A DNA stretch of 64,000 nucleotides, from the NCBI RefSeq assembly GCF_058153355.1, contig NZ_CM177019.1. One strand, written 5' to 3'. Made by a program: the position numbers. Of this stretch, positions 36,001 through 39,000 are shown one piece after another; the stretch's first letter is position 1, and each line of letters begins with the position of its first letter.

Positions 36001-39000
36001 TATTCGCGGTGACGAGGTGTGGGGCGTATGCCGGATTTACGGGCAGGAAATCATCGATTACATCCAGAAAGCACGGGGGGAGGTATCCACCAGCCCGTCG
36101 GTTGTGTTTTGTGGTGCGTCCGGTGGGGCTGAAGTTCCTGATGTAATGGGCGAGGACAATTTTTTTATTGAGGGTACGCCATTTCTTATCGATCACGTTG
36201 CACTCGTACCGTTGGGCGTATGGGATAAGGATGGGAAACCATCGGGTGTGGAGGTAACAACGCCGACAGCAGAAGAGCAGCTTGCCGGAATGGTCCGGGA
36301 CGTTATTGATGCGGCCTGCAAGCCAGCCCTGGAAAAACTGGAAGAAATATCCGGGCGGCTGGCTCAACTGGAAAAAGAAGGGTGAGTCATAATGCTGATG
36401 AGTAAGGCAGAATATGCCAGACACAAAGGCGTAAGCCGCCAGACAGTTTACGACTGGATCGAGAAAGGCGAAGTGGTCATGTCCGGTAAAAAAATCGATG
36501 TGGAAGCGACAGAGCAGCGGAACAGCCCACCAGCACAGGGAAAAGACACAGTTTCTGAAATGTGGCCAGAGAGAACGCTGGAAATGACGTGGGGCGAGTT
36601 CTGGAAAGCAGTTAAGGCCAGAGACGGTAAAATTCCTGCGCCAGCAACGGACGAGGGCATACAGCAGCGTGTGCTGGATGCAGCCGGGGAATTAGGCTGG
36701 GAAGTGCACTTTCTTGATGATGGTGCTATCTGCCTTGAGGATTGCGACGGGCAGCATTACTTTGAACAATACAATTTGCGAGGTAATGCCAGGCTGGCAA
36801 TTCATATGCTGCGTTGCGAACTCTGCTATGTTGCAGGTGATTATGCCGATGAACTGGAATCATGGAGTGAGGCCGGACTAAACGCCCTGACTGAGTGGGA
36901 AAAATCAGGCCATCAATGACCTCAAAAAGTGTCAAGTTGAGCAGTTTGCCAGGTTGACACTTTACACTCTGAACGCGAAAAAGTGTCAACCTCGCTGTAA
37001 ACCCCGCCGTTACTAGCCTTGCGCCAGATTTACCACGTCAAAAAGCCGAAAAAAACGCGAAAAGTGTCAAGTTGCCATGCTTAGAAATGCCAGGGGAGGT
37101 TAAGTTTTGTTAAGGTTTTTCGCGAAAAAGTGTCAAGTGTGTCAACCTGCGATGTTAAGATTTGTTAAGGTCTTAAGCCGGAAAGTGTCAACCAGCCCCT
37201 AAGATTTCCTAAGGTGTAAATCATGACCATCACCGAAGCCGATATGCTGGAGATGATCCGCAGCATTGCCGGAATCAGCCAGGCTACAGGCACACAGGAG
37301 GCCACGCAGCCGGATACCGTCACCGCCGAAAATTACGCGCGTGTGGTGGCTGAGGTGATGCGCCGTGATGGTATCCAGCTTAATGACACTGATATGTGCG
37401 ACATACGAATCAGGGTTCTTGAATTGCTGTCATGCCGTCGCCGTTCTCAACAACGGAGGGAGAGCGCGAAAAATACTTACCGGTGGAAGAAGCCGGAACG
37501 GTTACGGCGGTAGATTCCTGATATTCAGGAAAACCACGAATCTGGGGGTTTTACTGGCGCGGTGTACACGGTGGAACGCATAGCGTTACCTGACTTATTG
37601 CATTGCAAAAAGTTAGAAAGGCACGGCCTGTGAGATGGGGTGTTGTGACTGACTTAAAGTCAACCGCAAATTCTTTCGTTGTGCTGGCACAGACGGTTAA
37701 ACTGTTGGTAACAGATTAACCCATCGGGGAAGTAAGGTTTATTTCTGGTCCGATGACGAAATTTTGCGACATTTTGCGACAAGTACGCGCGCGCGACGTT
37801 AACGAAATGAGCGCGATGTATTGCACATCTGGTGCAGTGAGTTTTCGGAGTCCATAAAAACCGGTCAAAACTTGTCATGCAAAACGATGCCACCGCAGCT
37901 ATTGATTTGTTCGGCCCCTTCAACTGGTCCCAGAATGGTGGGGATCTGAGATCTGCCCCTGAAAAAGTGCGCAAAAGTGGTACGCAAAAAGAAAAGTGCG
38001 TACCAGCGGAAAGCCCGCCATTACTGGCCTTGTGCAAAAAAGTACGCAGAACATCCACCGGATACGAAACCGATACGTGGAATGCGTACCGCTCCCCCTA
38101 CTAACCCATTTCAACCCGGTAACCAGCAAGCAAACATTACGGTAAGCCAACAGACAAGCCAAACATTAAACCTAAGGCTACCCCTTCGAAGGTGCTTTGA
38201 AGGGGGGATTTAATACAGCATCTTTTTTGTGTGGCTGGTGGTGGGGATTAGCAAATTTTTGATCCTTACTACAGCATTTTTGAGCATCGTTTTTTCATCG
38301 ATTGTATGAGATATTTGGCATAGATAGACGGTAATGAACCGTGGTGAACGTTGATGAACGATGATAAGGAGATGAAACCAATGGCAGTTACTACCCTGAA
38401 CAGTGTGGCGGATTATCTGCTGTGCTTCGCTCAGGAGCACGGCGACGTAATGACGCCGCTTAAACTGCAAAAGATGGTTTTTTATGCTGATGCCTGGTAT
38501 ATGGCCTTAAATGAGGGACAGGAACTGATACCTGACCAGTTTGAGGCTTGGGTACATGGCCCGGTAGCCCGCGAACTGTATAGCCGTTTTGCTGATTACA
38601 AATGGCGACCAATTGATGAAGAAATACAGTGCCCTGAACTATCCGATGAAATTAAAAAACACCTGGATGAAATCTACCAGGTGTTTGGGGGGTACTCAGC
38701 TTATGAACTGGAACAACTGACCCATCAGGAAAAACCCTGGCTGTTAGCGCGTGAAGGTGTGCCGGCAGACGCGCCATGTCGGAATGTTATAGATAAAAAG
38801 GTAACGGCAGAGTTTTATCGTTCTATGGCATCGTGAGTATGGGAAAAGGAAGTATCAGGGCCGGGAAACTGGCCCAAAAGGGTAGCCGTATTACCGCAGG
38901 CGAAAATCATCAGGCTGTAACGACCATTAATTTTTCCTTTCGCTATATCGACGCAGATCATGAAAAATTCAGGTTTGCAGCCGAGGATTCTGCTTATTTT

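What the first reader, a model, noticed from the sequence alone, without database searches (positions are those of the whole stretch)
36920..38110. Dense families of AAAAGTG-cored repeats (AAAAGTGTCAAC array, then AAAAGTGCG / GTACGCA repeats) around and after a small ORF
At 36920-37215 there are at least six AAAAGTGTCAA(C/G) copies plus three TTAAG-N-TTAAGG repeats. At 37760-38090 there is a tandem ATTTTGCGAC x2, an alternating GC run, and AAAAGTGCG / GGTACGCA / TGCGTACC repeats including a perfect 8-bp inverted repeat (37979-37986 with 37997-38004). The 837-bp stretch 37514-38350 has no convincing ORF in an otherwise compact island. Such arrays are typical of packaging (cos/pac) sites or regulator-binding regions, and in a satellite this could be where helper-phage terminase is redirected; this is speculative.
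Basis: partly seen in the sequence, partly recalled or inferred. Interest (0 to 1): 0.5.

Follow-up and report, generated by a model that had tools for sequence, protein, structure and literature searches.

The report
Phage-satellite packaging-site repeat arrays
Two clusters of short DNA repeats in a virus-parasitising island of an E. coli-type chromosome are most likely the places where the island gets loaded into a helper virus's capsids; this would extend a hijacking trick shown so far only for lambda-like helpers to a different class of helper virus, but it is not yet tested.

Summary
The window carries a PICI-type phage satellite at tRNA-Gly (about 20.8–39.6 kb).

**r1 (36920–37222).** It holds six exact AAAGTGTCAA copies and nothing similar elsewhere in 64 kb. 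It always follows a 175-aa protein (HTH175, 36392–36919). The protein's N-terminal winged helix resembles lambda TerS and Rpp and is nearly invariant across Enterobacterales. In 74 related loci the motif averages 4.2 copies just downstream of the gene and 0 upstream. The centre of r1 resembles an internal stretch of a helper-type phage terS gene.

**r2 (37962–38135).** It is a frameshifted fragment of that same terS gene. It keeps the phage's GTACGCA heptamer array, which is the probable pac site.

**Helper link.** Klebsiella relatives sit embedded inside prophages of this phage family and share an exact 17-mer with the helper's terS.

**Best reading (about 0.5).** This is a headful-packaging analogue of the known Rpp/cosB redirection system. 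An island protein binds island-specific repeats placed around a phage-derived core. r2 is a second, helper-type site or a relic.

**Main rival.** HTH175 is a Cox/Xis-like regulator and r1 is its operator array.

A replication origin is excluded, because the true iterons lie at 32840–33080. Nothing here has been tested experimentally.

The parts
36392..36919 (+). HTH175 gene. It encodes a 175-aa protein with an N-terminal winged HTH (residues 1-44), a disordered linker (45-54) and a C-terminal alpha/beta domain. It is the proposed binder of the r1 repeats.
36920..37222 (+). r1: an array of HTH175-type sites, AAAGTGTCAA(C/G), around a phage-pac-like core.
36926..36935 (+). r1 site 1, AAAGTGTCAA
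36954..36963 (-). r1 site 2, AAAGTGTCAA (inverted)
36980..36989 (+). r1 site 3. It aligns with the phage's inverted heptamer copy: AAAAGTG-TCA-ACC against AAAAGTG-CGT-ACC.
36999..37028 (+). r1 core, AAACCCCGCCGTTACTAGCCTTGCGCCAGA. It resembles the r2 core and the core inside phage terS.
   Evidence: Local alignment of r1 against r2: no shuffle reached the observed score (0 of 500; 0 of 1000). Against E. coli prophage C25 terS: 1 of 1000.
37061..37070 (+). r1 site 4
37127..37146 (+). r1 site 5 plus the overlapping half-site GTGTCAAC
37182..37191 (+). r1 site 6
37101..37214 (+). Three TAAGNTTTNNTAAGG elements (37101, 37156, 37200) interleaved with the sites. Their binder is unknown. The last one overlaps the ribosome-binding site of the next ORF.
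   Evidence: They are less conserved than the 10-mers (0.77 against 0.96). A related element is present in the Enterobacter locus L023.
37223..37513 (+). 96-aa ORF (phrog_1561). It is the homologue of the ORF that follows rppA and a cos site in EcCICFT073.
37750..38142 (+). Module shared with the island of E. coli 47-1826. It contains ATTTTGCGAC x2 (37761-37780), a CG run (37786-37795) and r2.
37962..38135 (+). r2: a frameshifted fragment of a phrog_370-type phage terS gene, about codons 48-113. It carries GTACGCA at 37980(+), 37997(-), 38042(+), 38083(-), a near copy at 37967, core GCCATTACTGGC at 38017-38028 and ATACGAAACCGATA at 38062-38075.
35714..36385 (+). Island DUF2213 protein (223 aa). 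It is a possible capsid-assembly hijacking gene. The helper-type phage family encodes a 406-aa DUF2213 protein.
   Evidence: Direct similarity to the phage protein is weak.
32840..33080 (.). The island's probable replication origin: more than 12 GGTAGAGGG/CCCTCTACC iterons directly after the primase gene. It is listed because it excludes r1 as the origin.

Best explanation
**Setting.** The window carries a PICI-type phage satellite. Its gene order is glyU tRNA, integrase, AntA, Ash, a D5-type primase split by an IS, SSB, ProQ, PerC, DUF2213, HTH175, r1, ORF96, r2 and toxin-antitoxin cargo.

**r1** is an array of binding sites for HTH175. The sites are AAAGTGTCAA(C/G), five direct and one inverted. 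They surround a core of about 45 nt descended from the packaging-signal region inside the terS gene of a headful-packaging helper phage family. That family has a phrog_370 TerS, a PBSX-type TerL, a DUF1073 portal and DUF2213/DUF2184 head proteins.

**The phage signal.** In the phage, this region carries six or seven GTACGCA heptamers, presumably bound by the phage TerS. In the island copy the element next to the core reads GTG-TCA-ACC instead of GTG-CGT-ACC.

**Proposed mechanism.** HTH175 bound to its repeats marks island DNA. Directly or through the helper's TerS, it brings the helper terminase to the conserved core, so packaging starts on the island rather than on the phage.

**r2** is a second, helper-type site: a decayed terS fragment that still carries the phage heptamers. 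The unmodified helper TerS could use it, or it may be a relic of the capture event.

**Status of each step.**
- Shown: the anatomy, the conservation, the linkage of HTH175 to the array, the homology to phage terS, and the embedding of related islands in helper-type prophages.
- Inferred: HTH175 binds the 10-mers, the heptamer array is the phage pac site, and the outcome is redirection of packaging.
For: 1. **Linkage of protein and array.**
   - r1 lies directly after the HTH175 gene in 8 of the 9 E. coli loci inspected, while the upstream and downstream genes vary.
   - Across 74 viral-contig loci, the motif A[AG]GTGT[CA]AA averages 4.2 copies in the 465 nt downstream of the gene. It averages 0 upstream, 0 inside the gene and 0.11 further downstream.
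   - Klebsiella, Serratia and Enterobacter relatives keep AAAGTGT(C/A)AAC. The most divergent Pectobacterium/Dickeya relatives carry only GTGTAAAG-type variants. The N-terminal HTH is near-invariant: K5, Y8, A9, V14, S15, R16, Q17, Y20, W22, K34, I35.
2. **Constraint.** Among 31 distinct E. coli-type r1 sequences, 10-mer columns match the window base in 96% of cases. Other columns match in 88% (permutation p < 1e-4).
3. **Type of protein.**
   - The only significant PHROG family is Nu1-type TerS (phrog_57, E 1.5e-7). RppA gives exactly the same pattern (E 3.9e-8).
4. **Position.** HTH175, r1 and ORF96 occupy the slot of rppA, a cos site and ORF93 in EcCICFT073. In that island the cos site next to rpp is required for transfer (PMC6739421, PMC6092414).
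5. **r2 is a terS fragment.**
   - r2 is 78-85% identical to codons of about 48-113 of terS in Klebsiella phages and E. coli prophages, with indels of 13 and 10 nt.
   - The phage heptamers occur in two reading frames and in both orientations, so they are a DNA-level signal.
   - A distant TerS homologue is annotated as belonging to a circularly permuted genome.
6. **The r1 core resembles the same stretch.**
   - Window r1 against r2: 0 of 1000 shuffles reached the score. ABU83972 r1 against C25 terS: 0 of 1000.
   - The Enterobacter array aligns to the same phage segment with the same motif swap (1 of 300).
7. **Helper link.**
   - A Klebsiella island with an HTH175 homologue is inserted in the DUF2184 capsid gene of a GZ7-like prophage. 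Its array shares an exact 17-mer, CAGATACGAAACCGATA, with that prophage's own terS. The 17-mer is flanked by GTGTAAA sites in the island and by GTACGCA in the phage.
   - Of 120 viral stretches carrying the 15-mer, 71 lie inside such terS genes.
   - L064 lies next to the same family's head-morphogenesis gene.
   - Pectobacterium-type islands carry a 5' half of terS that includes the heptamer array.
Against: - There is no experiment, and no characterised pac site exists for this phage family.
- HTH175 is not an Rpp homologue beyond about 30 residues (hhalign probability 34%). Its C-terminal domain has a different fold.
- Its HTH is Nu1-like, whereas the presumed helper's TerS is of another family. 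Rpp-style heterodimerisation of DNA-binding domains therefore cannot simply be assumed.
- Individual similarities between arrays and terS are short. Some are not significant on their own: window r1 against C25 terS gave 34 of 500 under one scoring scheme, and the Serratia array gave 14-43 of 300.
- E. coli-type r1 and Klebsiella-type r1 share different sub-segments of the phage region.
- r2's motif columns are not conserved significantly better than its other columns (Fisher p = 0.065).
- r2 in island context is rare: 3 E. coli genomes cover at least 80% of it.
- Xis, Cox and BldC, which give comparable or better fold matches, are regulators or architectural proteins that also bind repeat arrays.
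- The island in this window is damaged. The primase is split by an IS110-family element and IS66 copies bracket the island, so the site may no longer be in use here.
Confidence: 0.5

Rival explanations
1. HTH175 is a Cox/Xis/BldC-like transcriptional or architectural regulator, and r1 is its operator array. Cooperative binding to the repeats would switch on or off ORF96 and the variable cargo (defence, toxin-antitoxin) genes downstream, or autoregulate. The resemblance to phage terS would then be a recombination scar, and r2 a non-functional relic.
For: - r1 lies upstream of ORF96 and, in other islands, upstream of varied cargo genes.
- One island (L017) keeps the right half of the array with the ORF but lacks HTH175.
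- A related Nu1-like HTH protein in other viral contigs has a GTGTCAA array directly upstream of its own gene, which is the layout of an autoregulated gene.
- r2 shows no significant motif-specific conservation.
Against: - No sigma-70-like promoter is found in 36300-38500.
- This reading does not explain why arrays in three lineages contain segments of the helper terS linker, including a 17-mer identical to the co-resident helper's terS.
- It does not explain the positional equivalence with rppA and cos.
- It does not explain why the only significant phage-protein family is Nu1-type TerS.
Confidence: 0.28
2. r1 is a replication element of the island: an origin, or a second cis-replication region like P4 crr, whose iterons are bound by the primase-helicase.
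For: Iteron-like direct repeats with A/T-rich spacers are typical of origins. In unrelated viral contigs, GTGTCAA arrays sit next to primase genes (L124, L167).
Against: - The island has a classical iteron array with an unrelated motif, GGTAGAGGG, in more than 12 copies directly after the primase gene at 32840-33080.
- The same GTGT(C/A)AA arrays follow HTH175 homologues in islands with different replicases: D5_N type here and in Klebsiella, DUF927 type in Serratia.
- The motif tracks the near-invariant HTH, not the primase.
Confidence: 0.04
3. r2 alone is a dead relic. It would be a scrap of a helper terS gene picked up by recombination, with no present function, whatever r1 does.
For: - It is frameshifted and lacks both ends of the gene. 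PGAP calls the homologue a partial pseudogene.
- It is rare in island context.
- Its motifs are not better conserved than its flanks (p = 0.065).
- A cf-PICI shares only its left edge, as expected at a recombination junction.
Against: - Unrelated island lineages (E. coli and Pectobacterium-type) both retain the heptamer-bearing part of terS and little or nothing of the rest.
- Four of five aligned heptamers and both cores are intact.
- The known EcCICFT073 system also has a second, helper-type site (PMC6092414).
Confidence: 0.45

Closest known systems
Rpp (redirecting phage packaging) with cos1/cos2 of E. coli PICI EcCICFT073 (Fillol-Salom 2018, 2019; Murialdo and Feiss 2022)
   Same: - Both are satellites of the same gene architecture.
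- Both have a small protein with an N-terminal Nu1-like winged HTH, encoded between the head-related genes and a phrog_1561 ORF.
- Both have a packaging site next to that gene that keeps a helper-like core but has non-helper binding elements.
- Both have a second, more helper-like site nearby.
   Different: - HTH175 is not detectably homologous to RppA/B/C outside about 30 residues, and it has an alpha/beta C-terminal domain instead of Rpp's helical dimerisation region.
- There is no lambda cosN.
- The presumed helper is a headful (pac) phage whose signal lies inside terS and whose TerS is not Nu1-like.
- The site is a six- to seven-copy array rather than a single proposed R3-like element.
SaPI TerS-S / SaPI pac site / Ppi (Staphylococcus pac-type PICIs)
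   Same: In both, a satellite of a headful-packaging helper gives the terminase a new DNA specificity through a satellite-encoded DNA-binding protein and its own site.
   Different: The SaPI protein is a true TerS homologue that replaces the phage TerS. HTH175 has no TerS oligomerisation domain. Its site also contains helper-derived sequence.
Satellites that carry the helper's own packaging site (P4 with P2 cos; SaPIbov5 with helper cos)
   Same: r2 looks like a copy of the helper's signal carried by the satellite.
   Different: r2 is a fragment of a coding gene carrying a putative pac signal, not a cos site, and its activity is unproven.
pac sites inside small-terminase genes (P22 gene 3, SPP1 gene 1, P1 pacA; from my own knowledge)
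   Same: Here too, a repeat-rich packaging signal is embedded in the terS coding sequence.
   Different: The GTACGCA array of this phage family has not been characterised. Its assignment as pac rests on the DNA-level repeat pattern and on analogy.
P2 Cox boxes, Xis sites and BldC direct-repeat operators
   Same: These proteins have the same small winged-HTH fold and bind arrays of short repeats cooperatively.
   Different: Those systems control promoters or excision next to att. r1 is not next to att, has no detectable promoter, and carries terS-derived sequence.

Membership tests
Rpp protein family (RppA/B/C) | Sequence homology to RppA/B/C over the whole protein | tested here: not met
   phmmer against PDB (which includes 6HLK/6HN7) gives no hit at E <= 10. 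hhalign of the family profile against RppA aligns 29 residues at probability 34%.
Rpp protein family (RppA/B/C) | N-terminal winged HTH resembling the lambda TerS (Nu1) DNA-binding domain | tested here: met
Rpp protein family (RppA/B/C) | C-terminal helical region used for homo- and heterodimerisation | tested here: not met
   The AF2 model shows an alpha/beta domain at residues 60-170, with only weak dsRBD/HPF-like matches. The RppC match covers 64 residues only.
Rpp protein family (RppA/B/C) | Binds helper TerS, blocks phage packaging and promotes island packaging | not testable with these tools
   Needs two-hybrid or pull-down assays and transduction assays.
Lambda-type cos site | cosN sequence GGGCGGCGACCT with cosQ upstream | tested here: not met
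   No match with <= 2 mismatches in 36900-38200. The window-wide count is at chance level. CFT073 has it on both sides of rppA.
Helper-derived pac site (signal inside terS) | Sequence homology to the repeat-bearing region of a helper-type terS gene | tested here: met
   r2 is 78-85% identical to terS of Klebsiella phages and E. coli prophages. The r1 core is similar at 0-1 of 1000 shuffles.
Helper-derived pac site (signal inside terS) | Packaging series of the helper start at this sequence, and the site confers transduction | not testable with these tools
   No characterised member of this phage family was found or in the literature searches.
PICI replication origin | Iteron array directly downstream of the pri/rep gene | tested here: not met
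   r1 lies about 4 kb from the primase. A separate iteron array with another motif fills that position.
PICI-type phage satellite (context) | tRNA-adjacent integrase, a unidirectional operon with primase, no full virion gene set, size about 10-20 kb | tested here: met
   tRNA-Gly at 20707-20780 and int at 20906-22309. Gene order matches annotated relatives. Excision and induction were not tested.
Excisionase (RDF) site array | Binding sites immediately next to the att core | tested here: not met
   r1 is internal, separated from the island end by ORF96, r2 and cargo genes. No att-like repeat of the tRNA end was found in 36-46 kb.

The most novel reading that the evidence does not exclude
HTH175 defines a previously unrecognised, Enterobacterales-wide family of satellite proteins that re-target a headful (pac) terminase. 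The protein would bind island-specific AAAGTGT(C/A)AAC repeats that have replaced the helper's GTACGCA TerS-binding heptamers around a conserved core copied from inside the helper's terS gene. This would be the pac-phage counterpart of Rpp/cosB. It would also identify the heptamer array in the terS linker as the pac site of a widespread family of temperate phages, including helpers that carry the satellite embedded in their own capsid gene.
Probability: 0.4. Interest if true: 0.7.

Novelty: new variant of a known kind. Interest (0 to 1): 0.6.

Why it matters
**The gap.** Packaging redirection by Gram-negative PICIs is understood only for lambda-like cos helpers. There, Rpp pairs with TerS and reads an altered cosB.

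**What this would add.** If the reading here holds, the same logic evolved with an unrelated protein body against headful-packaging phages. The logic is to keep the part of the signal that the helper needs and swap the part that gives specificity.

**What it offers for experiments.**
- A concrete, sequence-defined candidate pac site for an uncharacterised but common family of enterobacterial temperate phages.
- A 10-bp recognition element and a 175-aa protein that can be tested directly.
- Natural helper-satellite pairs on single contigs in Klebsiella.
- A bearing on the published open question of why some PICIs carry two packaging sites.

**Practical angle.** These islands carry defence and toxin-antitoxin cargo, so their transfer route matters for how such genes spread. 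Defined packaging modules are also useful for engineered transducing particles.

Tried and rejected
- **Lambda-type cos.** I compared r1 and r2 with lambda cos and with the two CFT073 sites. No cosN is present.
- **r1 as a fragment of a phage gene.** blastn of r1 against 50,697 phage records found nothing. Every one of the 45 E. coli hit records listed has no annotated feature under the match.
- **Non-coding RNA.** Rfam gave no hit at E <= 1 in 36300-38500.
- **Promoter array.** No sigma-70-like site was found, and terminator-like hits were near shuffle expectation.
- **Replication origin.** Rejected after finding the true iterons.
- **Excisionase sites.** Rejected on position.
- **HTH175 as Rpp or as a TerS homologue.** Not supported by phmmer, hhalign or fold of the C-terminal domain.
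- **Island DUF2213 as a close copy of the helper's DUF2213.** Only 32% identity over 31 residues, so this is weak support at best.
- **Selection on r2 motifs.** Not significant.
- **Exclusivity of the GTGTCAA motif.** Rejected. A collection-wide scan showed that dense arrays also occur in unrelated viral contigs, some beside primases. The motif is informative only together with the HTH175 gene.
- **NCBIfam and PADLOC.** Neither names HTH175, ORF96 or the DUF2213 protein.
- **One literature search** (DUF2213 + satellite) was uninformative.
- **Statistical co-occurrence** of r1 islands with C25-type prophages in E. coli genomes could not be computed, because the hit lists are truncated. Only clonal ST361-like examples were seen in both lists.
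Full report
**Context**

The finding lies in a phage satellite of the PICI type.
- tRNA-Gly(CCC) is at 20707-20780. It is followed by a tyrosine integrase (20906-22309), AntA- and Ash-domain proteins, DUF4222, and a D5_N/DUF5906/Pox_D5 primase-helicase.
- The primase is split by an IS110-family element (29149-30189 plus 32108-32833). After it come SSB, ProQ and PerC.
- Next come a 223-aa DUF2213 protein (35714-36385) and a 175-aa HTH protein (36392-36919, here called HTH175).
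- Then follow repeat region r1, a 96-aa ORF (37223-37513), the poorly coding stretch that contains r2, and a SocA/Panacea gene pair (38351-39276).
- Annotated E. coli relatives show the same order. E. coli CFT073's EcCICFT073 is built the same way.
- No E. coli record matches 36300-38400 over 80% of its length, although 1175 records match parts of it. The region is therefore a mosaic of modules.

**Check of the observation**

- AAAGTGTCAA occurs exactly six times, all within 36926-37191. The only other hits in the window have a mismatch and are at chance level.
- TAAGNTTTNNTAAGG occurs three times, against 0.01 expected.
- GTACGCA occurs four times within 110 bp at 37980-38089, out of eight in the whole 64 kb.
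- The inverted repeat is 9 bp and perfect.
- The tandem ATTTTGCGAC x2 and the CG run are at 37761-37795.

**r1 and HTH175 form one module**

- r1 occurs in 165 of 5426 complete E. coli genomes. All 45 records listed show no annotated feature under the match.
- In eight of the nine E. coli loci inspected it directly follows the HTH175 gene, while the genes on both sides vary. The exception (L017) lacks the gene and the left three sites.
- The 10-mers stay exact in islands that are only 86-97% identical and differ by indels.
- Among 31 distinct E. coli-type sequences, 10-mer columns match the window in 96% of cases, against 88% for other columns (permutation p < 1e-4).
- HTH175 homologues occur across Enterobacterales. 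Residues 1-41 are almost invariant and the rest diverges to 35-60% identity.
- In 74 viral-contig loci, the motif A[AG]GTGT[CA]AA averages 4.2 copies in the 465 nt after the gene. It averages 0 before the gene, 0 inside it and 0.11 further on.
- Klebsiella, Serratia and Enterobacter relatives use AAAGTGTAAAC and AAAGTGTCAAC. The most divergent Pectobacterium/Dickeya relatives use GTGTAAAG variants, or place the array after an inserted gene.
- The arrays recur in islands with different replicases: D5_N here and in Klebsiella, DUF927 in Serratia.

**What kind of protein HTH175 is**

- Pfam gives only sub-threshold HTH_17. NCBIfam and PADLOC give nothing useful.
- Its only significant PHROG family is phrog_57, the lambda Nu1 small-terminase family (E 1.5e-7, residues 1-42). 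RppA of EcCICFT073 gives exactly the same single hit (E 3.9e-8).
- The AlphaFold model (pLDDT 88) has a winged HTH at residues 1-44, a disordered linker, and an alpha/beta domain at 60-170.
- Sequence comparison with RppA, Nu1 and the helper-type TerS finds nothing beyond the roughly 30-residue HTH.
- HTH175 therefore shares Rpp's DNA-binding fold class and genomic position, but it is not a member of the Rpp family.

**r2 is a fragment of a phage terS gene**

- 37962-38131 matches Klebsiella temperate phages at 78-82% identity. The match lies inside their small-terminase gene, which is followed by a PBSX-family TerL and a DUF1073 portal.
- E. coli prophages have the same gene at about 85% identity. 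An example is strain C25 (L008:5847-6596), which also has a DUF2213 protein and a DUF2184 capsid protein. PHROG assigns these proteins to phrog_370, small terminase.
- The window copy covers about codons 48-113. It has indels of 13 and 10 nt and spans more than one frame. PGAP marks the homologue in strain 47-1826 as a frameshifted partial pseudogene.
- In the phages, codons 44-97 carry six or seven GTACGCA heptamers. They occur in two reading frames (V-R and G/S-T-Q) and in both orientations, which indicates a DNA-level signal laid over a flexible protein linker.
- By analogy with P22, SPP1 and P1 (my own knowledge), and given one distant homologue annotated as from a circularly permuted genome, I take this to be the phage pac site. 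This is an inference.
- r2 keeps four exact heptamers and one near copy. It also keeps GCCATTACTGGC, identical to the C25 prophage, and ATACGAAACCGATA.
- Pectobacterium-type islands with HTH175 homologues carry a truncated terS (residues 1-125) that again includes the heptamer array.
- However, r2's motif columns are not significantly better conserved than its other columns (p = 0.065), and r2 is rare in islands.
- The module 37750-38142 is shared with one other island type. A cf-PICI shares only 37854-37995.

**r1 contains terS-derived sequence**

- The centre of r1 (36979-37028) aligns with r2 and with the C25 terS: AAAAGTGTCAACC-TCGCTGTAAACCCCGCCGTTACTAGCCTTG against AAAAGTGCGTACC-AGCGGAAAGCCCGCCATTACTGGCCTTG.
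- Scores were reached by 0 of 500 and 0 of 1000 shuffles for r1 against r2, and by 0-1 of 1000 for r1 against C25 terS. One scoring scheme gave 34 of 500 for window r1 against C25.
- In this alignment the island's site replaces the phage's inverted heptamer, at the same distance from the core. Only the central three bases differ: GTG-TCA-ACC against GTG-CGT-ACC.
- The Enterobacter array aligns to the same phage segment with the same substitution (1 of 300).
- Klebsiella arrays share a different piece, the 17-mer CAGATACGAAACCGATA (0 of 300). The Serratia matches are not significant on their own.

**Physical link to the helper family**

- In viral contigs, 71 of 120 stretches with GATACGAAACCGATA lie inside phrog_370 terS genes. 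At least six lie next to HTH175 homologues, and the rest fit chance expectation.
- Contig IMGVR_UViG_2718217961_000003 holds both. It carries a GZ7-like terS-TerL-portal block and, downstream, an island inserted in the DUF2184 capsid gene.
- That island's HTH175 array contains the helper's own 17-mer. It is flanked by GTGTAAA sites where the helper has GTACGCA.
- Locus L064 sits just upstream of the same family's head-morphogenesis gene.
- Such helper-embedded PICIs are a described phenomenon (PMC10111431). Their packaging has been discussed only for cos helpers.

**Comparison with the known system**

- EcCICFT073 has two lambda-like cos sites flanking rppA. One is at L002:7527-7600, forward. 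The other is at about 8270-8340, reversed, next to ATGTCCGGTT repeats.
- One of them (cos1) is needed for transfer and works only with Rpp. Rpp pairs with helper TerS, so the complex reads the island's cosB instead of the phage's (PMC6092414 and PMC6739421; PMC9026076).
- The present module has the same position, the same logic of a conserved helper core with swapped specificity elements, and a second helper-like site.
- It differs in having a different protein, no cosN, and a helper that packages by the headful route.
- My literature searches found no description of such a pac-type variant. That is absence from the held library, not proof of absence.

**Rival readings**

- **Regulator.** The strongest rival is that HTH175 is a Cox/Xis/BldC-like regulator and r1 its operator array for ORF96 and the cargo genes. 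The fold matches and a related HTH family with arrays upstream of its own gene allow this. No promoter is detectable, however, and this reading leaves the terS-derived cores unexplained.
- **Replication origin.** This is excluded in practice. More than 12 GGTAGAGGG/CCCTCTACC iterons lie directly after the primase gene at 32840-33080.
- **Excisionase sites.** These are excluded on position.
- **r2 as a relic.** That r2 alone is a dead relic remains about as likely as not.

**Verdict**

- The repeats are real, conserved and non-random.
- r1 is almost certainly the binding-site array of the adjacent HTH protein (about 0.85).
- That the module redirects a headful-packaging helper terminase is the best-supported function (about 0.5), but it is unproven.
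- The island in this particular window is disrupted by IS elements, so intact relatives are the right material for tests.

Noticed in passing
window 32840-33080: A dense array of more than 12 GGTAGAGGG/CCCTCTACC iterons with A/T-rich spacers lies directly after the primase-helicase gene. It is the island's probable replication origin.
   Followed up: partly
window 31484-32104: A perfect 205-bp unit is repeated three times in tandem (100% identity). It lies just 3' of the IS110-family transposase (30248-31423) that splits the primase gene, and it yields two identical 78-aa ORFs. There is no Rfam match. Whether it is an IS-associated non-coding element, a real tandem duplication or an assembly artefact is open.
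   Followed up: partly
window 25999-28468 and 39684-42153: Two 100%-identical 2470-bp IS66-family copies, each with three ORFs, lie in inverted orientation and bracket most of the satellite. They could invert or mobilise the segment between them.
   Followed up: partly
L257 11930-12703 and L258 919-11500 (both IMGVR_UViG_2718217961_000003); L020; L064 3001-5700: Satellites with HTH175 homologues are embedded inside late genes of prophages of the phrog_370-terS/DUF1073/DUF2213/DUF2184 family. Examples are the DUF2184 capsid gene in Klebsiella and a position next to the head-morphogenesis gene in L064. The helper's terS lies on the same contig in one case.
   Followed up: partly
L109 11176-11930 (also L158, L162, L174, L175): An unrelated viral contig type has 17-18 GTGT(C/A)AA copies in 400 nt, interleaved with TTAAGGCAG-N3-CTGCCTTAA-like palindromes. 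The array is about 1.2 kb upstream of a small ORF and a large terminase (phrog_2). The pairing of a TTAAGG element with GTGTCAA echoes r1. The binder is unknown.
   Followed up: partly
L139 8667-9482 (also L108, L145, L156): A second family of proteins of about 195 aa has a related Nu1-like HTH (MSxMSVSQYAKHAGMSRQALYxW; phrog_57 E 2e-6). It has 7-9 GTGTCAA/GTGTAAA copies immediately upstream of its own gene, within a cluster that includes a tail-sheath-like gene.
   Followed up: partly
L098 5488-6126 and L101 5579-5947: Pectobacterium-type islands encode an intact-looking ORF made of the first 125 residues or so of the helper-type TerS (HTH plus heptamer linker) fused to unrelated sequence. 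It might make a truncated TerS DNA-binding protein.
   Followed up: no
window 37761-37795: The tandem ATTTTGCGAC x2 reads GTCGCAAAAT x2 on the other strand, which is one base short of the phage GTACGCAAAAT unit. It is followed by AAGTACGCG and a CG run. The stretch is conserved in the island of E. coli 47-1826. These may be degenerate heptamer copies about 200 nt upstream of r2. Unexplained.
   Followed up: partly
window 37527-37585: A 59-nt stretch is 88% identical to part of a KilA-N-domain gene (hkbK) of phage HK620 and relatives. It is probably a recombination scrap.
   Followed up: no
window 38351-39276: A SocA/Panacea-domain antitoxin-like gene (161 aa) overlaps a 147-aa partner that has a weak MAG6450-family match. 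This is probable toxin-antitoxin or defence cargo in the island's variable end.
   Followed up: partly
window 35338-36385: Two adjacent island ORFs match different parts of one 545-position PHROG profile (phrog_6216). The 103-aa ORF matches positions 450-544 and the DUF2213 ORF matches positions 115-328. The order is therefore permuted relative to the profile, or the gene was split and rearranged.
   Followed up: no
L002 8094-8270 (E. coli CFT073): The region between rppA and the reversed lambda-like cosN holds three ATGTCCGGTT copies (two direct, one inverted). It is a candidate Rpp-binding array that I did not find mentioned in the papers I read.
   Followed up: no
window 44364-49485: Type III secretion genes with an AraC-type regulator, a secretin and an export-apparatus protein lie next to the island. 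By my own recollection this fits the E. coli ETT2 locus beside glyU.
   Followed up: no
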